Source of the DNA: a virus | Strand: one strand, 5' to 3' | Virus genome (UHGV): UHGV-1407012 | Length of the DNA stretch: 37,288 bases | Shown here: positions 1,279-33,984 of the stretch, in pieces | How positions within the stretch are numbered: the stretch's first letter is position 1 | How the letters are laid out: each line of letters starts with the position of its first letter | The notes under the pieces: model-generated | Seen by the model: the letters and a program-made list of their open reading frames with translations, nothing else | The model's database searches: none | Told to the model about the DNA's origin: nothing | Position numbers and translations under genes: made by a program

Positions 1279-1758
1279 TTAAATTGCGTGAATAGCGTGA
1301 CGAGGGAAGGGGAGAGTTACTGGTTCCTCGTCTGGGTAGATAGGTTTGTTATGTTTGTGCCACTCGACATGGCATGACTTGCAGAGCCACATCACATCGG
1401 TTGGTTTGCTGTAGTCGCAGTGGTGCGCCTGTGGTTTACATTCTGATCCGCAGCACTCACATTGTGGTGGTCGGATTAGCTTACCGTCGCGCAAAAAATT
1501 ACCCACAATGATGTGGGCTTTTCTTTTCCATGGGTTGCTCTGAATGAACCGCTTTTTGGCTGCGTTACACCGTTCTCTTCCGCGTTCCGATGATTGATAT
1601 TCTCTCCTTGCTGATACTCGATGTGGCAATCCAGCGCGTTCTTTGTCGTATTCAGCCAGGCAAGCCCGGCAAGCGGCAGTTAATCCATCTCTGGATGCTC
1701 TTCTGATTTGAAATTCCCTTTCTTCCTTCTGTTGATGGCATCTTGAGCAGATTTTCAT
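1279..1758 (-). CDS. HNH-family endonuclease with N-terminal Cys-rich (zinc-ribbon-like) segment
   Basis: CxxC...CxxC pairs and C-terminal HHCDY...WLCKSCH...WH motif typical of HNH nucleases; AGGAG RBS. Confidence 0.7.
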   Translation of the reverse strand: MKICSRCHQQKEEREFQIRRASRDGLTAACRACLAEYDKERAGLPHRVSARREYQSSERGRERCNAAKKRFIQSNPWKRKAHIIVGNFLRDGKLIRPPQCECCGSECKPQAHHCDYSKPTDVMWLCKSCHVEWHKHNKPIYPDEEPVTLPFPRHAIHAI

Positions 1759-3128: not shown

Positions 3129-3207
3129 GAATATCTCCTTCGTTACCGATTAAATCTTTCATCTGACGAATGAATTCTTCGTCTGACCAGTTATCTGTAA
3201 AACTCAT
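3049..3207 (-). CDS. Small acidic hypothetical protein (52 aa, MSFTDNWSDEEFIRQMKDL...)
   Basis: ATGA start/stop overlap with the upstream Kil-like ORF (translational coupling). Confidence 0.3.
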   Translation of the reverse strand: MSFTDNWSDEEFIRQMKDLIGNEGDIHVTCNHSEGEQVTETHVHAESSLVSP

Positions 3208-3356
3208 TTCCTGCGATACCACGGAAGGTTGATAGCTGATTTCATCTCTTTATTTGCTTCAAGCCACATTTTGGAATCACCAATAAATCTGGCTATTACT
3301 GCTTTGTTTTGTGCCGCACGAAGCATCTGGTGATTGATGGCTATTTCATTGCGCAT
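3204..3356 (-). CDS. kil: Kil-like small protein (50 aa)
   Basis: Position immediately after cIII, overlapping its 3' end as in lambda; segment ...AVIARFIGDSKMW... resembles lambda Kil as recalled (from memory, unverified). Confidence 0.4.
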   Translation of the reverse strand: MRNEIAINHQMLRAAQNKAVIARFIGDSKMWLEANKEMKSAINLPWYRRK

Positions 3357-3472
3357 AATAAGACCTCAACTCTTTTCCATCCGTCACGTAATTTACGGGT
3401 GATTCGTTCAAGTAAAGATTCATTTAGTTGGAAGGCACCCATGCGAGCGCCTCCCGCGATTGCGTAAATCAT
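3341..3472 (-). CDS. cIII: cIII-like FtsH (HflB) protease inhibitor (43 aa)
   Basis: Core ...ESLLERITRKLRDGWKR... matches the lambda CIII helix as recalled; AAGGAA RBS; position in the pL operon. Confidence 0.6.
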   Translation of the reverse strand: MIYAIAGGARMGAFQLNESLLERITRKLRDGWKRVEVLLCAMK

Positions 3473-3496: not shown

Positions 3497-4465
3497 TTAG
3501 TAGGTTATTTTTGTTGCGAATACTTCGCCTTTTACGATGGCTGTTATGATATTTTTAGCAATATCTTCTGATGCGCCAACCTTGATAAGGTCAGCAAGTA
3601 TTTTGTTATTTACTTCTTTCCGGTGAGCTTTATCCTTTGCTCTACGCTCTTCTTCGTCCTTGATTCTTTTTTCTTCTGCTATTCTGGCTTGCTCTTTTGC
3701 TTCAGCCTCGCGACGGATTCGTTCAGCCTCCTCCTGTGCTTTTCTGCGTTCTGCTTCAATTGCTGCCTGCTTTTCTCTTTCAGCTCGTTCTGCTGCCTCT
3801 TTTGCTTCGCGCTGTGCTCGTTGCTCGGCTTCAATGCGTTCACGCTCTGCACGTTCCGCTGCGGCCTTAGCTTCTGCTTCTCGCCTTGCTGCTGCTTCAA
3901 TTTCGGCTTTTGCCTTTGCTTCGGCTTCTGCTCTGGCTTTCTCTTCAGCTTCTCTTTTTAATCGTTCTTCATGCTCTCGCTTTTCCTGCTCCGCTTTGAG
4001 TCTTGCCTCTTCTCTTTGGCGGTCAAATTCGCGATCCATCAAAATCGCTATTTCATGGTCAGACTCAATTTGCTTTGCGAGAGCTTCAGCTGCTGCCTTA
4101 GCTTCTTCTTCGGCTTTAATCCGCGCCTGTTCTTCCTCATAATCAGTAAGAGGCTGGCGCGCCTTGGCTTTCAGTTCATCAAGGCGATCACGCACCGTCT
4201 TGCGGTTGGCATCAATTAGCTTTGGAATTTCCTTCAGTTCAGCAACAAGGTCTTTGCCAAGACCATCGAGATATGTTTTCGTCTGTGCAACTTTAAACGC
4301 CAGAGAAGCGATCTCCTTTCTGCCCTTTGCCGTTGTGATATCAGGCACAAAGGACATAACTTCACGTTCAACCTTTTGGAGAATTTCTTCAATCTGGTCA
4401 GCAGACTGAAATACAATCATTGCATTTGCTTTTTCAATAACAACTAAATCTGTTACTTCACTCAT
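3497..4465 (-). CDS. Coiled-coil protein with long Glu/Ala/Arg/Lys low-complexity repeat (322 aa)
   Basis: ATG 4465 with GGAGG RBS (track ORF extends to TTG at 4519); about 150 aa of EAKA/RREAE heptad-like repeats between structured N- and C-terminal regions. Confidence 0.7.
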   Translation of the reverse strand: MSEVTDLVVIEKANAMIVFQSADQIEEILQKVEREVMSFVPDITTAKGRKEIASLAFKVAQTKTYLDGLGKDLVAELKEIPKLIDANRKTVRDRLDELKAKARQPLTDYEEEQARIKAEEEAKAAAEALAKQIESDHEIAILMDREFDRQREEARLKAEQEKREHEERLKREAEEKARAEAEAKAKAEIEAAARREAEAKAAAERAERERIEAEQRAQREAKEAAERAEREKQAAIEAERRKAQEEAERIRREAEAKEQARIAEEKRIKDEEERRAKDKAHRKEVNNKILADLIKVGASEDIAKNIITAIVKGEVFATKITY

Positions 4466-4599
4466 ATATCCTCCATCAAAAAAATCGCCCTCACATTGGA
4501 GGGCAAAGAAGATTTCCAATAATCAGAACAAGTCGGCTCCTGTTTAGTTACGAGCGACATTGCTCCGTGTATTCACTCGTTGGAATGAATACACAGTGC

Positions 4600-4788
4600 T
4601 TATTCGTCATGCATTTCAGGTAATTCTTCGTATTCGACTCCCCATACGAGTTTACACCAAGTGACTCGCTCATATCTTTTACAAAAATCAGACCACATAA
4701 CTTGTGTTCCATCATGGTTTGTTATTACTTCTGTAATATCACCAACACTAACAAAACTGGTATTAGAAGCAGTTATTTTTACTTTCAT
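4600..4788 (-). CDS. Hypothetical protein (62 aa)
   Basis: TAATG overlap with upstream gene stop; AT-rich. Confidence 0.55.
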   Translation of the reverse strand: MKVKITASNTSFVSVGDITEVITNHDGTQVMWSDFCKRYERVTWCKLVWGVEYEELPEMHDE

Positions 4789-5075
4789 TACTTATCCCCA
4801 AGAGCTTTTCTGATTGCTGCGATACCTTTATTAACAGCTCCATACCATTCTGGATATGTTGTCGTTGTTCTATTTTTGGTTTGCTTAAGTAATAACTGAA
4901 GTGCTTCGAGAAGGTCAGGAGCTGCTGCTATCAGTAGCGCATCCTCCCTTTCATTTCTTGTTGCTGCTTCAATGTATGTGTCACCAATCGTCACACCATG
5001 GAACGTAGTCATCATCTCGTTGACGTTTCTAACCGTGTACTTCCATTTACCAGGCGTACCCTTAAACTCTTTCAT
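4788..5075 (-). CDS. Hypothetical protein (about 95 aa)
   Basis: ATG 5075 with GAGGTG RBS (track start 5081 is GTG). Confidence 0.55.
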   Translation of the reverse strand: MKEFKGTPGKWKYTVRNVNEMMTTFHGVTIGDTYIEAATRNEREDALLIAAAPDLLEALQLLLKQTKNRTTTTYPEWYGAVNKGIAAIRKALGDK

Positions 5076-5095
5076 ATCCACCTCTGTTGTTTATG

Positions 5096-5123
5096 CCAAA
5101 AATAAAGGCCGACTATGCGGCCT
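5096..5123 (-). terminator. Rho-independent terminator (minus strand) after the membrane-protein gene
   Basis: AGGCCG-loop-CGGCCT stem followed by a U-tract on the minus-strand transcript. Confidence 0.5.
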
Positions 5124-5127
5124 GAGA

Positions 5128-5577
5128 TTACTTAACCAATGATGCTGCATATTCGATAAGGTAAAGCTTTGGGGCCAGCCAAATTTTTAACCAAGTCATA
5201 TTGGTTACTACACCAATAATAAAAATCCCCCACAGAGTCAAAACTCCAACCAATGGCATGATAAGAAGGTTAATATCTCCTTTGCTATCCCAAACCATTG
5301 TCGGCCTGTATTTGGGATTTCCCCTCTCCCATGAGTATCCTTCATCACCGATTTTACCTGTCTCAACTCTTTGGCACTGCTTCTTCATAAACCAGAAAAC
5401 CAGTGGGATTGTTAGAATGGCTATTAATGTTTTAATCAGACTGTCAACCATATTCCATAGCAGCAACTGATGAACAACATCAGGAATCTGCGCTTGGCTG
5501 AATGAAACAGCCGCGTCTATTCCATTGCTGGCTTTTTGCAGTAGTTCTACGAGAATCTTGTTTGCTTGTTCTTCCAT
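5128..5577 (-). CDS. Inner-membrane protein with two predicted TM helices (149 aa); possible superinfection-exclusion-type moron
   Basis: Hydrophobic segments IKTLIAILTIPLVFWFM and LLIMPLVGVLTLWGIFIIGVV; intrinsic terminators on both sides; position equivalent to sieB-type genes of lambdoid phages (inference). Confidence 0.65.
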   Translation of the reverse strand: MEEQANKILVELLQKASNGIDAAVSFSQAQIPDVVHQLLLWNMVDSLIKTLIAILTIPLVFWFMKKQCQRVETGKIGDEGYSWERGNPKYRPTMVWDSKGDINLLIMPLVGVLTLWGIFIIGVVTNMTWLKIWLAPKLYLIEYAASLVK

Positions 5578-5618
5578 ATATCCCCTTGATTGTAATAAGC
5601 ATGAAATTATTTACGGCC

Positions 5619-5648
5619 AAAAAATAAAGGCCACCATCAGGCAGCCTT
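5619..5648 (-). terminator. Candidate rho-independent terminator (minus strand)
   Basis: 9-bp stem that pairs only on the minus-strand RNA (two G-U pairs) followed by UAUUUUUUGG; overlaps the stop codon of ORF 5637..5837. Confidence 0.4.
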
Positions 5649-5837
5649 GTTATTCTGTTTACCAAGTTCTCTGGCAATCATTGCCGTCGTTCGTATTGCC
5701 CATTTATCGACATATTTCCCATCATCCATTACAGGAAACATTTCTTCAGGCTTAACCATGTATTCCGATTGCAGCTTGCATCCATTGCATCGCTTGAATT
5801 GTCCACACCATTGATTTGTATCAATAGTCGTAGTCAT
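5637..5837 (-). CDS. Hypothetical Cys-containing small protein (66 aa)
   Basis: ATG 5837; contains CGQFKRCNGC cluster. Confidence 0.5.
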   Translation of the reverse strand: MTTTIDTNQWCGQFKRCNGCKLQSEYMVKPEEMFPVMDDGKYVDKWAIRTTAMIARELGKQNNKAA

Positions 5838-5907
5838 ACGGATAGTCCTGGTATTGTTCCATCACATCCTGAGGATGCTCTTCGAACTCTTCAAATTCTT
5901 CTTCCAT
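5821..5907 (-). CDS. Possible very acidic micro-protein (28 aa, MEEEFEEFEEHPQDVMEQYQDYPYDYDY)
   Basis: ATG with GAGGTG RBS 4 nt upstream; 3' end overlaps the start of the next gene; too short for ORF track. Confidence 0.25.
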   Translation of the reverse strand: MEEEFEEFEEHPQDVMEQYQDYPYDYDY

Positions 5908-5969
5908 ATCTCACCTCAAATAAGTGGTTTGCTGCCAAAACAATGAACCATCCGGAAATTCCAGATAGT

Positions 5970-6194
5970 TCATAATTCACTCTTCAATACTTCCAACTTA
6001 CTAATCGCCGATAGATATCCGCGCTGATAGGGCATCATCATTCCTTCGAGCTTGCCACTTCTTAACTCCTCCCTGAGCAATTGTATTGCTTGATCAATAA
6101 CCTCTGCCTTAGCGTCCTTTATGGCTTGCTTGCGGGGCTTTGCTTTCTGCTTTGGCAGATTTCTCAAGCATGATGGAATGTATGTCTGATTCAT
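5970..6194 (-). CDS. First gene of the pL operon (74 aa); N-like antiterminator only by position
   Basis: ATG 6194 with GAGG RBS; Lys/Arg-rich N-terminal stretch KQKAKPRKQ but no clear arginine-rich N motif. Confidence 0.55.
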   Translation of the reverse strand: MNQTYIPSCLRNLPKQKAKPRKQAIKDAKAEVIDQAIQLLREELRSGKLEGMMMPYQRGYLSAISKLEVLKSEL

Positions 6195-6437
6195 CACTTA
6201 CCTCGCTGTAACCTGCTTACTTGTACGATGACCAGCTGCGAAAAGCGCAACTTCTGGCAGGCAGACAGTACCACTCTTCAAATCAGCCTCCTTTTTCTTT
6301 TTCTATATCAAAAAGCTGCTTTGCTTTTGTGACTAAAAGCAAAAAAGCCTTCTCGCTAATGAGCAGCATTGCCGTTCATCCTGAACCCGCCGCGCTCCCG
6401 ACGCATGGTTTAATGTCGCGCCGTTCGACATGGCTTA

Positions 6438-6466
6438 ACTATATCCAAAGCTATTATTTCTGTAAA
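6438..6466 (-). promoter_or_regulatory. pL-like early-left promoter (-35 TTTACA, 17-bp spacer, -10 TATAGT on minus strand)
   Basis: Read on the reverse complement; overlapped by operator half-sites. Confidence 0.5.
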
Positions 6467-6473
6467 TAGCTAT
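6447..6473. promoter_or_regulatory. OL-type operator: AAAGCTAT-N11-ATAGCTAT inverted repeat
   Basis: Same half-site and spacing recur between cI and cro (7379..7405). Confidence 0.45.
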
Positions 6474-6560
6474 AGTTATAAAATAACTACTTTGGTTATT
6501 TAGTTGTTGATATATAATGTAATTTATTTTTCTTGAGTGTGATGTTTGGTGTGTTTTGGG

Positions 6561-6588
6561 CAATAAAAAACCCGCAAAAAGCGGGTTT
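6561..6588 (-). terminator. Rho-independent terminator downstream of cI
   Basis: AAACCCGC-loop-GCGGGTTT hairpin followed by UUUAUUG on the minus strand. Confidence 0.6.
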
Positions 6589-6605
6589 GTTGTGGTGTGA
6601 TGCGG

Positions 6606-7337
6606 TTAGTAATCAACTACAGACCACCAGAAAATTCTTCCGATGATCTCAATGTCACTTAGATTCTTTTCTTCTTGTGGGTATTCCAGTGAGTTAAAGC
6701 TTCTAATGCTTACCTTGTCAGGCCCTGTTCGAAAGAGAATCTTAATGCGTTTCCAACCGTTCTCGTTAATGGCGTAAATCTTTCCGTCAACTATTTTCTT
6801 ATCGTTGGTGTTAACAGCAACTGTTGTTCCATCAGGAATGTTTGGCTCCATGCTGTTGCCACGAGCCGGAAAACAAACAACCCCGCTTCCATCACTGTTC
6901 GCGCCAACTCTGCGAAGGGTTGATTTGGAAAAGCGCAACATAAAGCCGTTGTGATCTTCATCAATCACCCGACCATCCCCGCATGCAAACTCAATATCTT
7001 TAAGGTAAGGAATTTCAACTTCATCACCTCTTAAAGGCGTTCCTCCATCCCATGGGTCCAAACATCCCCACGTGCTTTCATGAGGAATAGAAGATTTTGG
7101 ATCATAAGGTTCAACTCCCTCATCACGCATTGGCCCAGTTCCATCGGAAAGCCATTCCGTACGAACTCCAAGCACTTTTGATATTTCAAAAAGTTTGCGC
7201 GTATTGCGTGTTTTTCCAGACGTAAGTTTCCAGACGCTTGGCTGAGACATGCCAACAGCATTGCCAAGAGAAGCCTGAGTAAACCCAGCCTGATCCATCG
7301 CGTATGTAAGCCTTTGAGAAAAAGTATCTAGTTTCAT
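6606..7337 (-). CDS. cI: CI-type prophage repressor (HTH N-domain, LexA-like S24 autopeptidase C-domain)
   Basis: HTH segment QASLGNAVGMSQPSVWKL; C-terminal GNSMEP serine motif and downstream Lys; divergent from cro. Confidence 0.9.
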   Translation of the reverse strand: MKLDTFSQRLTYAMDQAGFTQASLGNAVGMSQPSVWKLTSGKTRNTRKLFEISKVLGVRTEWLSDGTGPMRDEGVEPYDPKSSIPHESTWGCLDPWDGGTPLRGDEVEIPYLKDIEFACGDGRVIDEDHNGFMLRFSKSTLRRVGANSDGSGVVCFPARGNSMEPNIPDGTTVAVNTNDKKIVDGKIYAINENGWKRIKILFRTGPDKVSIRSFNSLEYPQEEKNLSDIEIIGRIFWWSVVDY

Positions 7338-7348
7338 TCGGACAACCT

Positions 7349-7405
7349 ATAGCTACAGCTATTATTAGTCAAATATCTAAAGCTATTTACTTTCTGAATA
7401 GCTTT
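7349..7405. promoter_or_regulatory. OR operator region: 14-bp palindrome ATAGCTacAGCTAT (7349..7362) and AAAGCTAT-N11-ATAGCTTT (7379..7405); includes putative pRM (-35 TTGACT on minus strand)
   Basis: Inverted repeats read directly; arrangement between divergent cI and cro. Confidence 0.45.
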
Positions 7406-7414
7406 GGCTATTAT
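7386..7414 (+). promoter_or_regulatory. pR-like promoter (-35 TTTACT, 17-bp spacer, -10 TATTAT)
   Basis: Positioned about 30 nt upstream of the cro start and overlapped by an operator. Confidence 0.45.
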
Positions 7415-7445
7415 TCTTGTTGTGAATTCAGCAGGAGTTATTTTT

Positions 7446-7676
7446 ATGGTCAACAAGGCTATTAAAGCGGCTATTGACTCAGTAGGAAGTCAGCAAAAGT
7501 TAGCTGATGCCTGCGGTGTTAAGCAGCCGTCTGTATGGGCTTGGTTGCATGGGAAGAAAAGGGTATCCGCTAAAAATGCCAAGCGCATTGAAATGGCTAC
7601 CAATGGAAGCATCCCTGCATACCTGATTCGCCCTGATTTATCCGATTTGTTCCCCAATCCGAACAAAGCAGCTTAA
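7446..7676 (+). CDS. cro: Cro-like repressor (76 aa)
   Basis: ATG 7446 with AGGAG RBS inside track ORF 7404..7676; HTH QQKLADACGVKQPSVWAW. Confidence 0.7.
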   Translation: MVNKAIKAAIDSVGSQQKLADACGVKQPSVWAWLHGKKRVSAKNAKRIEMATNGSIPAYLIRPDLSDLFPNPNKAA

Positions 7677-8124: not shown

Positions 8125-8286
8125 ATGACAAAACGTCGTAAGAAATACCAGGAAAAAGAAGAGATTCGACACCCTGATTCACCTGAGGGATTAGTGGTAG
8201 CCGCAGCAAATAACAGGGCTTTCGCAGAGCGCCTTGTTGGTGTTTACAGACTAGCCAAAGCAGGAGTGAAACATGGGCGTCGTTAA
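8125..8286 (+). CDS. Small basic hypothetical protein (53 aa, MTKRRKKYQEKEEIRH...)
   Basis: AGGAG RBS 5 nt upstream of ATG; lies between cII and the replication gene. Confidence 0.4.
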   Translation: MTKRRKKYQEKEEIRHPDSPEGLVVAAANNRAFAERLVGVYRLAKAGVKHGRR

Positions 8287-8335
8287 GTTAGCTGATTACA
8301 GGCATAACCCTGTACAACATCAGGAGGCATCCAGT

Positions 8336-9163
8336 ATGGGGTATGTCTCTATACACCGCCAGTTTATGGACAGCAGGCTCTATAAGGACTCTCAGGCAGT
8401 ACATCTTTGGCTTCACTTAATCCTCAAGGCTAATCACGAATCTACTGTCGTCAATACGGATATCGGGCCGATAACTGTTGATCGCGGTCAGATGATAACT
8501 GGACGCCCGTCGCTGGTCAGAGAAACATTCATCCCCGACAACAAAGTTCGGAGCTTATTACGGACTTTTGAGTCGAAAGGGATGCTTAATATTTGCTCGA
8601 TGGGGAAGAAATTTAGCCTGTTTACAATCGTTAAATATGACGATTTTCAGGCAAAAAATTGTCCAACGGTTGTCCAACGGTTGTCCAACGCAAACACCAG
8701 TAATGGCGCGGCTCTCAGCGGAGATTGTCCAACGGTTGTCCAACGGTTGTCCATAAACAATAATATAAATAATATCTCTAATACTGACGTATTAGAGAGT
8801 GCCACAGCAGACAAAAAGTCTGACAAGAAAAAACCTTCCGTTAGCTGTCAGGATGTTGTCGATGCTTACCACGAAATCCTTCCTGAAGCGCCAAAAATCC
8901 GCGCACTGAATGACAAGCGTAAAAACCAGATCCGAACGTTCTGGCGCAAAGCCGGAGTGATAACCCGCCAGCTTGACGGGCATGGGTTCACGATGCAGGA
9001 CTGGAGAAATTATTTGAGCTACGTAGGCGAAAATTGCCGATGGATGTTCGAAGAGCGTCCAAACCATCAACGCGGAACCGTCTGGCACAAAAAGGGATTT
9101 GATTTCCTGCTTAACGATAATACCTACCTGAAAGTTCGTGAGGGTGAACACGATGACCGATAA
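8336..9163 (+). CDS. Replication initiator (lambda O / P22 gp18 functional analogue) carrying the origin iterons
   Basis: ATG 8336 with AGGAGG RBS (track ORF starts 8273); iterons and AT-rich tract inside the gene; followed by the helicase gene. Confidence 0.75.
   Translation: MGYVSIHRQFMDSRLYKDSQAVHLWLHLILKANHESTVVNTDIGPITVDRGQMITGRPSLVRETFIPDNKVRSLLRTFESKGMLNICSMGKKFSLFTIVKYDDFQAKNCPTVVQRLSNANTSNGAALSGDCPTVVQRLSINNNINNISNTDVLESATADKKSDKKKPSVSCQDVVDAYHEILPEAPKIRALNDKRKNQIRTFWRKAGVITRQLDGHGFTMQDWRNYLSYVGENCRWMFEERPNHQRGTVWHKKGFDFLLNDNTYLKVREGEHDDR
8659..8757. repeat. Origin iterons: six 11-bp TTGTCCAACGG-type direct repeats in two triplets, followed by an AT-rich tract
   Basis: Triplets at 8659..8691 and 8725..8757; AT-rich 8757..8790; encode the repeated peptide CPTVVQRLS. 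Confidence 0.7.
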
Positions 9164-33952: not shown

Positions 33953-33984
33953 AAATAGGGCGGTTTCCCCGCCCTATTTTTATA
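33953..33984. terminator. Bidirectional rho-independent terminator shared by tailspike (+) and acyltransferase (-)
   Basis: ATAGGGCGG-tttcc-CCGCCCTAT stem flanked by A-run and T-run. Confidence 0.7.

What the first reader, a model, noticed from the sequence alone, without database searches (positions are those of the whole stretch)
5096..5648. Membrane-protein gene bracketed by two intrinsic terminators inside the early-left operon
The 149-aa two-TM protein (5128..5577) has a terminator just upstream (hairpin 5619..5648, pairing only on the minus-strand RNA) and another just downstream (5096..5123). Both share the GCCAAAAA(A)TAAAGGCC core. An insulated transcription unit like this inside the pL operon resembles lysogen-expressed superinfection-exclusion genes such as sieB, but I could not confirm sequence similarity.
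Basis: inference. Interest (0 to 1): 0.5.

Follow-up and report, generated by a model that had tools for sequence, protein, structure and literature searches.

The report
Terminator-capped accessory membrane-protein cassette in pL operon
A small two-helix membrane-protein gene of unknown function sits between two look-alike transcription stop signals because two stop-signal-ended gene modules were joined in tandem in a mosaic lambda-like phage; this is ordinary phage mosaicism, although the protein belongs to a large, unstudied phage family.

Summary
ORF 5128..5577 (-) encodes a 149-aa two-TM protein, flanked on the minus strand by intrinsic-terminator hairpins at 5648..5627 and 5123..5106. 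Both contain a 13-mer found nowhere else in the window.

The "insulated sieB-like unit" reading is only partly supported:
- The upstream terminator belongs to ral. Lambda, mEp506 and phi296 have it without the gene.
- The two terminators are direct repeats flanking a ~522-bp presence/absence cassette.
- The 35-nt leader is a relic of an N gene's 3' end. In phage HF4s the gene lies 8 nt after N with no upstream terminator.
- This stretch carries five minus-strand terminators in 2.1 kb, downstream of an HK022-type putL (no N gene), so pL transcripts should read through them.
- No sigma-70 promoter is detectable.
- There is no similarity to SieB, T4 Imm, Pfam, NCBIfam, PADLOC or PDB. The only family match is PHROG 3054 (function unknown).

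The family is large (about 2,550 clusters at 50% identity). It has invariant N- and C-termini and a hypervariable loop, and occurs in virulent phages too. It is usually coupled to the upstream gene and often followed by a terminator. Published RNA-seq of a 97.7%-identical prophage copy shows background expression in LB but a local peak in other conditions. Function is unknown; I favour an envelope role during lytic growth.

The parts
5128..5577 (-). CDS, 149 aa, two-TM protein of PHROG 3054. N-terminus (aa 1-42) and C-terminus (aa 128-149) are invariant; the TM segments and loop are variable.
5578..5612 (-). Leader with the Shine-Dalgarno AAGGGG. It is a degenerate relic of an N gene's 3' end: it reads GRK*FHAYYNQ against HF4s N ...RGKSIPAYYD*.
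5617..5648 (-). Intrinsic terminator of ral (stem 5648..5627, U-tract 5626..5617). It overlaps the ral stop codon and is present in phages that lack the cassette.
5096..5123 (-). Intrinsic terminator that travels with the cassette (stem 5123..5106, U-tract 5105..5096).
5098..5110 (.). Direct-repeat copy 1 of AAAAATAAAGGCC (U-tract plus half of the stem), left edge of the indel.
5620..5632 (.). Direct-repeat copy 2 of AAAAATAAAGGCC, right edge of the indel.
5637..5837 (-). ral (restriction alleviation), the upstream module.
   Evidence: phrog_1055, E 8e-48
6301..6437 (-). HK022-type putL antiterminator RNA just downstream of pL (6466..6438). No N gene is present.
4485..4506 (-). Homolog of the lambda tL2a terminator, the next terminator downstream.
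5944..5972 (-). Terminator-like hairpin after the 75-aa gene, the next terminator upstream.
4788..5081 (-). Downstream gene (97 aa, phrog_1273, function unknown). It starts right after the cassette terminator.

Best explanation
The region is a mobile accessory-gene cassette (about 5083..5612, plus the repeat). It carries one gene for a two-TM inner-membrane protein of the uncharacterised PHROG 3054 family and its own intrinsic terminator, and it sits immediately downstream of the ral module, which ends in a closely related terminator.

The two terminators are direct repeats of one conserved module-boundary element. In lambda-like phages, either ral or this gene can sit in front of that terminator and its conserved downstream flank. 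Here the two modules are in tandem, which creates the appearance of a bracketed gene. The cassette was captured from an 'N then X' arrangement, because its leader still carries the last codons of an N gene.

Transcription comes from pL (inferred). RNA polymerase modified by the HK022-type putL RNA should read through all five terminators of this stretch, so the protein would be made with the delayed-early genes after infection or induction. Polymerase that starts downstream of putL without modification would be stopped at the next terminator. This keeps stray transcription short and makes the gene the 3' end of any such transcript.

The protein's function is not established (inferred). Its conserved N- and C-terminal segments, about 65 aa in total, are probably cytoplasmic. 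They appear to be held at the membrane by two poorly conserved helices, with a hypervariable and probably periplasmic loop. I favour an envelope-level role in phage-phage or phage-host conflict during lytic growth, for example blocking entry of secondary phage DNA in the manner of T4 Imm. It is not a lysogen-expressed SieB-type abortive system.
For: Anatomy
- The terminators are real and enriched.
- The 13-mer repeat is unique to the two sites.
- The empty sites of lambda, mEp506 and phi296 align as left flank plus one terminator plus right flank.
- Megablast boundaries fall at 5083, 5612 and 5616.
- The gene has different upstream partners in HF4s (N), Gally (an 84-aa gene), and Sf6 and this window (ral).
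- The N relic is in the leader.

Operon context
- putL is 95.7% identical to HK022 and there is no N ORF.
- Five minus-strand terminators lie in 4485..6587, against five in the other 35 kb.

The gene is real and constrained
- The match to PHROG 3054 has E 2.8e-64.
- 516 close homologs were found, and about 2,552 clusters at 50% identity.
- In the N-terminal 41 codons there are 22 synonymous against 3 nonsynonymous differences; in the C-terminal 21 codons, 12 against 2.

It is normally not autonomous
- In 18 of 30 loci the upstream same-strand ORF ends within 20 nt of the start.
- No promoter scores above shuffles.

A terminator cap is recurrent
- 11 of 23 family genes have one, against 22 of 312 other ORFs in the same loci (p about 1e-6), and the terminator sequences are unrelated to one another.

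In vivo support
- In LF82/Gally, RNA falls at least 4-fold across the downstream terminator in three conditions.

A lytic-phase role
- Homologs occur in virulent Schitoviridae and Justusliebigvirus phages, in early or middle regions, and directly after the spanin genes (late lysis cassette) in Pantoea and Yersinia prophages.
Against: - In LF82/Gally the gene's RNA exceeds that of the upstream N gene 8-fold in condition B6 and about 4-fold in MB6. One antiterminated pL transcript does not predict this. It needs either an unrecognised internal promoter or selective stabilisation of the hairpin-bounded segment.
- Gally makes many spontaneous virions, so those samples mix lysogenic and induced cells.
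- put-mediated read-through of these particular terminators is inferred from HK022 biology and was not tested.
- No data bear on protein function. The topology call rests on charge counts that are ambiguous for long-loop members. The AF2 model has only a mean pLDDT of 68.
- The cassette terminator hairpin is degraded in HF4s and Sf6, so it is not strictly required.
Confidence: 0.55

Rival explanations
1. The gene is an autonomous, lysogen-expressed superinfection-exclusion or abortive-infection gene like sieB. It has its own promoter and is insulated from pL by a terminator on each side.
For: - It occupies the accessory slot near N and ral, where lambda and P22 carry sieB.
- A downstream terminator is a recurrent feature of the family.
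- The LF82/Gally copy shows a local RNA peak over both neighbours in conditions B6, MB1 and MB6.
- Several relatives (L009, L012, L013, L019) also have a terminator about 30 nt upstream.
Against: - No promoter scores above shuffles in four phages. Only 39-49 nt separate the upstream terminator from the ATG.
- Expression is at background in LB-grown lysogens, and the authors list no morons for Gally.
- The upstream terminator exists without the gene, and the gene exists without the upstream terminator.
- 18 of 30 relatives are tightly coupled to an upstream lytic gene.
- The family is present in virulent phages.
- There is no SieB homology.
Confidence: 0.15
2. The protein is an anti-defence or host-takeover factor. 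As an early membrane protein, it would neutralise a membrane-based host or prophage defence, or a conserved envelope machine. It would be grouped with ral and other counter-defence genes in the pL-proximal accessory region.
For: - It lies next to ral.
- It is found in early or middle regions of virulent N4-like and phi92-like phages.
- It is accessory (present or absent) among close relatives.
- The conserved termini suggest a conserved target across Gamma- and Betaproteobacteria.
Against: - No homology to any known anti-defence protein was found, and the tools give no partner or target.
- The positions after spanin genes and next to an integrase are not typical for early counter-defence genes.
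Confidence: 0.15
3. The protein is a lysis-timing component (an antiholin-like or spanin-associated regulator).
For: - In 7 of 30 genome loci the gene directly follows, and often overlaps, the spanin genes of a holin-endolysin-spanin cassette.
- It is a small two-TM protein.
Against: - Here and in most Escherichia and Salmonella phages it is in the early-left operon. In N4-like phages it sits among the early or middle genes for the phage RNA polymerase and nucleotide and DNA metabolism.
- It co-occurs with unrelated holin types, yet its conserved parts are invariant.
- The site after Rz/Rz1 is a general site for accessory genes; lambda bor is an example (established knowledge).
Confidence: 0.1
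4. The pair of hairpins acts mainly as RNA-stability elements. After processing of the long pL transcript, the segment bounded by the two stem-loops would survive longer, which would raise expression of this gene relative to its neighbours without any promoter.
For: - There is a local RNA peak in LF82/Gally without a detectable promoter.
- Stable hairpins lie at both ends.
Against: - Only gene-level counts are available.
- The same gene works without the upstream hairpin in HF4s and with degraded downstream hairpins in HF4s and Sf6.
Confidence: 0.15

Closest known systems
Shigella phage Sf6 gene 34 (and GALLYPH_30 of phage Gally, HF4s_0037)
   Same: These are true homologs in the same slot with the same flanks. 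Sf6 gp34 is 50% identical overall, with the first 39 and the last 20 residues nearly identical. Gally and HF4s carry cassettes that are 97-98% identical.
   Different: The TM segments and loop of Sf6 gp34 are replaced by an unrelated sequence. None of these genes has a known function.
Lambda/P22 SieB (superinfection exclusion B)
   Same: It is a membrane protein encoded in the N-ral part of the early-left region, and it is accessory.
   Different: There is no sequence relationship. SieB has its own mapped promoter, according to Ranade and Poteete 1993 (from memory, not read here). No promoter is detectable here, and the family also occurs in virulent phages.
Morons (extra genes in lambdoid phages flanked by a promoter and a terminator, e.g. 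HK97 gene 15, lambda bor and lom)
   Same: The gene is present or absent between conserved neighbours, has a terminator directly after it, and occurs at known moron sites: after Rz/Rz1, next to int, and near N.
   Different: No promoter was found. GC content is the same as the flanks. The gene is usually translationally coupled to the upstream gene, and it is at background in LB-grown lysogens.
Lambda tL2 terminator cluster and the 'boundary sequences' annotated in Sf6 and HK620
   Same: There is a run of intrinsic terminators between ral and the recombination genes that are read through by antiterminated polymerase. The tL2a homolog is at 4506..4485. The Sf6 record annotates tL2A and boundary sequence bsq4 next to gene 34. 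Zaworski et al. note that such intra-operon terminators are common and of unknown role.
   Different: Here one terminator type is duplicated as a direct repeat around a cassette.
HK022 putL RNA-mediated antitermination
   Same: Window 6301..6437 is 95.7% identical to HK022 putL and there is no N gene.
   Different: No nun gene follows putL here. An N 3' relic sits at 6200..6281.
T4 Imm
   Same: It is a small two-TM protein made early in lytic infection. This is the functional analogy I favour.
   Different: There is no homology (hhalign probability 0.1%). Imm has no conserved soluble termini.

Membership tests
PHROG 3054 (function unknown) | Full-length match to the family profile | tested here: met
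   E 2.8e-64, residues 1-149 against profile positions 1-137 of 137. All 50 distant relatives also match.
SieB (Pfam SieB family; lambda and P22 SieB) | Sequence or profile similarity to SieB | tested here: not met
   No Pfam hit at E <= 1. None in 50 relatives. hhalign against lambda SieB gives probability 0.1%.
SieB (Pfam SieB family; lambda and P22 SieB) | Own promoter active in the repressed prophage | tested here: inconclusive
   No sigma-70-like site above shuffles. The LF82/Gally copy is at background in LB but 4-8x above its neighbours in B6, MB1 and MB6.
SieB (Pfam SieB family; lambda and P22 SieB) | Aborts growth of superinfecting phages | not testable with these tools
   Needs plating assays.
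Moron | Extra gene present or absent between conserved flanks | tested here: met
   Empty sites in lambda, mEp506 and phi296.
Moron | Factor-independent terminator directly downstream | tested here: met
   5123..5106 plus U-tract. Family-wide, 11/23 against 22/312 for other ORFs.
Moron | Own sigma-70 promoter directly upstream | tested here: not met
   Best PWM score 8.1 against a shuffled-best mean of 8.6; pL scores 12.7. In 18 of 30 relatives the gap to the upstream ORF is <= 20 nt.
Moron | Base composition different from the surroundings | tested here: not met
   GC 0.40-0.42 across the cassette and 0.40-0.44 in the flanks.
Moron | Expressed from the repressed prophage | tested here: inconclusive
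   Published RNA-seq of the Gally copy.
T4 Imm-type superinfection immunity | Sequence or profile similarity to Imm | tested here: not met
   hhalign probability 0.1%. No Pfam hit.
Known anti-phage defence systems (PADLOC-DB 2.0) | Match to any defence protein model | tested here: not met
   0 families at E <= 10.
Rho-independent terminator | GC-rich hairpin followed by a U-tract on the transcribed strand | tested here: met
Rho-independent terminator | Stops transcription in vivo | tested here: inconclusive
   A drop of at least 4-fold in gene-level RNA after the cassette in Gally. No 3'-end mapping is available.
HK022-type put antitermination | put RNA sequence downstream of pL and absence of an N gene | tested here: met
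   95.7% identity to HK022, HK75 and O276 putL. No N ORF. Rfam has no matching model.

The most novel reading that the evidence does not exclude
PHROG 3054 is a new, very widespread class of phage-encoded inner-membrane conflict proteins, acting in superinfection exclusion or counter-defence. An invariant cytoplasmic N+C module of about 65 aa would be the effector. The swappable, hypervariable periplasmic loop would set specificity. The family would be used by both temperate and virulent phages and would move as a terminator-capped cassette.
Probability: 0.25. Interest if true: 0.6.

Novelty: new member of a known kind. Interest (0 to 1): 0.3.

Why it matters
For genome annotation, a gene between two terminators in a lambdoid early operon need not be an autonomous unit. 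Here the pair of terminators marks where two terminator-ended modules were joined. It also illustrates terminators serving as the conserved boundary sequences at which lambdoid mosaics are reshuffled.

For phage biology, the more useful by-product is the protein family. It comprises about 2,500 clusters at 50% identity, has no Pfam, NCBIfam or PADLOC model, and has near-invariant termini under strong purifying selection. It is present in about 2-9% of complete E. coli genomes and in N4-like and phi92-like virulent phages, and no function has been assigned. It is a cheap, well-defined target for a plasmid-expression and phage-challenge experiment.

Tried and rejected
- **Family searches.** Pfam, NCBIfam and PADLOC scans of the protein gave nothing. 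A Pfam scan of 50 distant relatives gave only scattered single-member hits to transmembrane families, which I treat as noise.
- **Direct profile tests.** hhalign against lambda SieB and T4 Imm gave probability 0.1% for both.
- **Structure.** The AF2 model (pLDDT 68) searched against BFVD gave no match with E <= 0.001. The afdb50 library was unavailable. The PDB sequence search gave nothing credible.
- **RNA families.** Rfam found nothing on the whole window and only sub-threshold noise on 6190..6610. put RNA was identified by BLAST instead.
- **Promoters.** Consensus and PWM searches in the window, Gally, HF4s and Sf6 found nothing above shuffles.
- **Literature.** Searches for the PHROG number, Sf6 gene 34 and the mEp phages found no functional study. 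The LF82 CRISPRi preprint reports nothing for Gallyph_30.
- **mEpX2.** I first read it as an 'N then X' phage. Its annotation shows N, then the 75-aa gene, then a truncated copy, so I dropped that reading.
- **Topology.** Charge counts are ambiguous for long-loop members. Only short-loop members favour N-in/C-in.
- **Holin.** Rejected, because the gene is expressed in the early operon and a separate holin is present where it follows the lysis genes.

Full report

Yes. The minus strand of 5128..5577 carries a 149-codon ORF with an ATG start preceded by AAGGGG. Hydropathy windows give two hydrophobic segments at about residues 43-65 and 102-127.

The terminator scan reports two minus-strand sites. 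One is at 5648..5627 (9-bp stem, tail TATTTTTTGG). The other is at 5123..5106 (6-bp stem, tail TTATTTTTGG). The 6-kb region holds 15 such sites against 5.5 +/- 2.7 in shuffles.

RNAfold energies on the minus strand are -13.9 and -9.7 kcal/mol. The upstream stem is weaker on the plus strand (-8.5) because of two G-U pairs. The downstream stem pairs on either strand, and only its U-tract is strand-specific.

The shared core is not chance. AAAAATAAAGGCC occurs twice in 37 kb, exactly at the two terminators, against 0 matches in 100 shuffles.

**2. What surrounds it?**

All the following features are on the minus strand, read in the direction of pL transcription:

| Coordinates | Feature |
|---|---|
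| 6606..7337 | cI |
| 6587..6569 | terminator of cI |
| 6466..6438 | pL-like promoter |
| 6301..6437 | 95.7% identical to HK022 putL |
| 6200..6281 | relic of an N 3' end |
| 5970..6197 | 75-aa gene |
| 5972..5944 | hairpin |
| 5824..5907 | 28-aa ORF |
| 5637..5837 | ral |
| 5648..5627 | terminator |
| 5128..5577 | the 149-aa gene |
| 5123..5106 | terminator |
| 4788..5081 and 4600..4788 | 97-aa and 62-aa genes |
| 4506..4485 | homolog of lambda tL2a |
| 3497..4465 | 322-aa gene |
| 3341..3472 | cIII |
| 3204..3356 | kil |

There is no N gene. This phage therefore uses HK022-type, RNA-mediated antitermination. That conclusion rests on the sequence identity and on established HK022 biology, and read-through here is inferred.

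Five minus-strand terminators lie within 2.1 kb, against five in the other 35 kb. Almost every small module in this stretch ends in a terminator, so the 149-aa gene is not singled out. Zaworski et al. (PMC8022706) note that such intra-operon terminators are common in P22-like phages and that their role is unknown.

**3. Where do the two terminators come from?**

Megablast against phage genomes shows that window 5083..5612 moves as a unit. It is found in HF4s, Gally, N7, CUS-3, Oslo and Stx2 phages. The ral module starts at 5616.

Lambda, mEp506 and phi296 have ral followed by a single terminator. Its left flank (CTGTTGTTTATGCCAAAAATAAAGGCC) matches the window's downstream copy. Its right flank (ACCATCAGGCAGCCTTGTT...) matches the window's upstream copy. 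Relative to these empty sites, the window has a ~522-bp insertion flanked by the direct repeat GCCAAAAA(A)TAAAGGCC.

The cassette has different upstream partners:
- In HF4s the gene lies 8 nt after the N stop codon, with no upstream terminator.
- In Gally it follows an unrelated 84-aa gene, which nevertheless ends in the same terminator.
- In mEpX2 a truncated copy follows the 75-aa gene.
- In Sf6 (gene 34) the arrangement equals the window's, and the record annotates tL2A and a 'boundary sequence' next to it.

The 35-nt leader in the window reads GRK*FHAYYNQ in frame. The C-terminus of HF4s N is RGKSIPAYYD*, and lambda N ends GKSIPLI. The cassette was therefore captured from an 'N then X' arrangement.

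The cassette hairpin is degraded in HF4s and Sf6.

I conclude that the bracket results from the tandem joining of two modules that each end in the same boundary terminator. It is not a purpose-built insulator.

**4. Is the gene an autonomous unit?**

The sequence says no. No sigma-70-like site was found by the consensus scan. A PWM search of 330 nt upstream in the window, Gally, HF4s and Sf6 gives a best score of 8.1. The mean best score of shuffles is 8.6, and pL scores 12.7. GC content equals that of the flanks.

Across 30 loci from different genera:
- In 18, the upstream same-strand ORF ends within 20 nt of the start, and often overlaps it.
- A terminator directly after the stop codon is recurrent and uses unrelated sequences. 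It occurs in 11 of 23 family genes, against 22 of 312 other ORFs in the same loci (Fisher p about 1e-6).
- Four loci also have a terminator about 30 nt upstream.

The typical state of the family is therefore the last gene of a co-directional block, capped by a terminator.

**5. Published expression data**

E. coli LF82 carries prophage Gally, which has a 97.7%-identical cassette (GALLYPH_30 = LF82_104). In Misson et al. 2023 (PMC9928086), Gally is reported to have no morons in LB overnight culture. The gene's normalised count is 18.6, against a prophage median of 15.6.

The same supplementary table shows a different picture in three other conditions (log2(fpkm+5), two replicates each):

| Gene | B6 | MB1 | MB6 |
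|---|---|---|---|
| N (upstream) | 3.9/4.1 | 6.7/6.6 | 4.5/5.1 |
| gene 31 | 5.7/6.1 | 7.1/7.6 | 5.9/5.6 |
| GALLYPH_30 | 7.1/7.0 | 7.0/7.0 | 7.0/6.9 |
| gene 29 (downstream) | 4.8/4.9 | 4.5/5.4 | 4.4/4.7 |

MB1 and MB6 are bacteria inside macrophages at 1 h and 6 h. I did not verify the exact definition of the B1 and B6 samples.

Two things follow. RNA drops at least 4-fold across the cassette terminator. In B6 and MB6 the gene's RNA also exceeds that of the upstream N gene. This keeps open either a weak or non-sigma-70 internal promoter, or selective stability of the hairpin-bounded segment. The authors report that Gally is the most actively induced prophage of LF82, so induced cells contribute to these samples.

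**6. The protein**

The only family match is PHROG 3054, function unknown (E 2.8e-64). Pfam, NCBIfam, PADLOC and PDB give nothing. hhalign against lambda SieB and T4 Imm gives probability 0.1% each.

The family is large. There are 516 close homologs, all annotated as hypothetical. A profile search finds 2,552 clusters at 50% identity with E <= 1e-3, and 1,179 with E <= 1e-10.

Alignments show this architecture:
- a near-invariant N-terminus (GIDAAVxFSQAQIPDVVxQLLxW);
- a variable TM1;
- a loop of 8 to about 70 residues that falls into a few unrelated classes;
- a variable TM2;
- a near-invariant C-terminus (WLKIWIAPKLYLIEYAASLVK).

The termini are under purifying selection, not merely recently recombined. 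Against locus L010 there are 22 synonymous and 3 nonsynonymous codon differences in the N-terminal 41 codons. There are 12 and 2 in the C-terminal 21 codons.

Charge counts are ambiguous for long-loop members. In short-loop members the loop is acidic and the termini carry the K/R residues, which favours N-in/C-in with a periplasmic loop (inference).

The AF2 model has a mean pLDDT of 68. It shows helices at 3-25, 32-68, 106-125 and 128-147, and has no structural neighbours in BFVD.

**7. Where else does the family occur?**

In prophages it is found in four kinds of place:
- after N or ral in the early-left operon;
- directly after, and often overlapping, the spanin genes of a Q-holin-endolysin-Rz/Rz1 cassette (7 of 30 loci, including Pantoea and Yersinia);
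- between P2-like tail genes and the integrase;
- near portal and terminase genes.

It is also present in virulent phages. These include N4-like Schitoviridae of Salmonella and Vibrio, where it sits next to RNA polymerase, thymidylate synthase and dUTPase genes. They also include 145-150-kb Justusliebigvirus (phi92-like) phages, and a Ralstonia jumbo phage with three copies.

A protein shared by virulent and temperate phages, and usually co-transcribed with lytic genes, cannot have a lysogen-specific core function.

About 511 of 5,426 complete E. coli genomes have some match to the cassette. In 112 the match covers at least 80% of it.

**8. Interpretation**

*Shown:*
- the gene is real and constrained;
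- the terminators are real;
- the terminators are direct repeats at a module boundary;
- putL is present and N is absent;
- there is no homology to SieB, Imm or any known defence protein;
- no promoter is detectable;
- the family is broad.

*Inferred:*
- transcription comes from pL, with put-dependent read-through;
- the terminators confine polymerases that were not modified by put;
- the protein acts at the inner membrane during lytic growth.

My preferred function is an envelope-level conflict role, either Imm-like exclusion of secondary infection or counter-defence. This rests only on architecture, on the gene's accessory status and on its positions in genomes. The rivals are an autonomous sieB-like unit (0.15), an anti-defence factor (0.15), a lysis-timing factor (0.10) and hairpin-mediated RNA stabilisation as the reason for the RNA peak (0.15).

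**9. Verdict**

The arrangement is an ordinary product of lambdoid mosaicism at terminator boundary sequences, inside a put-antiterminated early-left operon. The gene is a new member of a known kind: an accessory, terminator-capped phage gene.

What remains of interest is the large, entirely uncharacterised PHROG 3054 family, and the unexplained local RNA peak in the LF82 lysogen.

Noticed in passing
window 6301..6437 (-), pL at 6466..6438: The sequence just downstream of pL is 95.7% identical to HK022, HK75 and O276 putL antiterminator RNA. The window has no N gene, so this phage appears to use RNA-mediated antitermination. Rfam has no model that detects it.
   Followed up: partly
window 6200..6281: This stretch is 98.8% identical to the mEpX2 N-gene region (N 3' end), with no intact N ORF. 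It is a recombination scar where putL replaced nutL and the 5' part of N.
   Followed up: partly
window 7664..7674 (+), just after cro (7404..7676): An 11-nt match to the putL sense strand lies at the position where HK022 has putR. It is too short to call.
   Followed up: no
window 5578..5612 (-): The leader of the 149-aa gene reads GRK*FHAYYNQ in frame, a decayed copy of the C-terminus of an N protein (HF4s N ends RGKSIPAYYD*).
   Followed up: yes
window 4485..4506 (-): This is a near-exact homolog of the lambda tL2a terminator (TTGCCCTCCAATGTGAGGGCGATTTTTTT), just upstream of the 322-aa phrog_1376 gene.
   Followed up: partly
window 5566..5586 and 5896..5916: An 86%-identical 21-nt repeat covers the ribosome-binding site and start of two genes, both beginning MEE...: the 149-aa gene and a 28-aa ORF (5824..5907, phrog_16060).
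   Followed up: no
window 8558..8760, inside the replication gene 8273..9163: Repeats spaced 66 bp apart appear as identical promoter-scan hits at 8753..8724 and 8687..8658, and as the repeated peptide CPTVVQRLSN. They are probably origin iterons.
   Followed up: no
window 33955..33977 and 1501..1518: These hairpins have T-runs on both strands (bidirectional terminator-like sites).
   Followed up: no
Ralstonia phage RsoM2USA (MG752970.1), around 264,661: This jumbo phage has three separate matches to the family, suggesting paralog expansion.
   Followed up: no
E. coli LF82 prophage Perceval, LF82_152 (literature, PMC9928086 S1 Table): A different 'transmembrane protein' lies between a homolog of the window's 322-aa gene and kil. 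It is strongly expressed in the lysogen (578 against a background of about 5). The same early-left accessory region therefore does hold true morons in related phages.
   Followed up: no
L011, L022-L025, L028, L033: In 7 of 30 genome loci the family gene directly follows or overlaps the spanin genes of the lysis cassette.
   Followed up: partly
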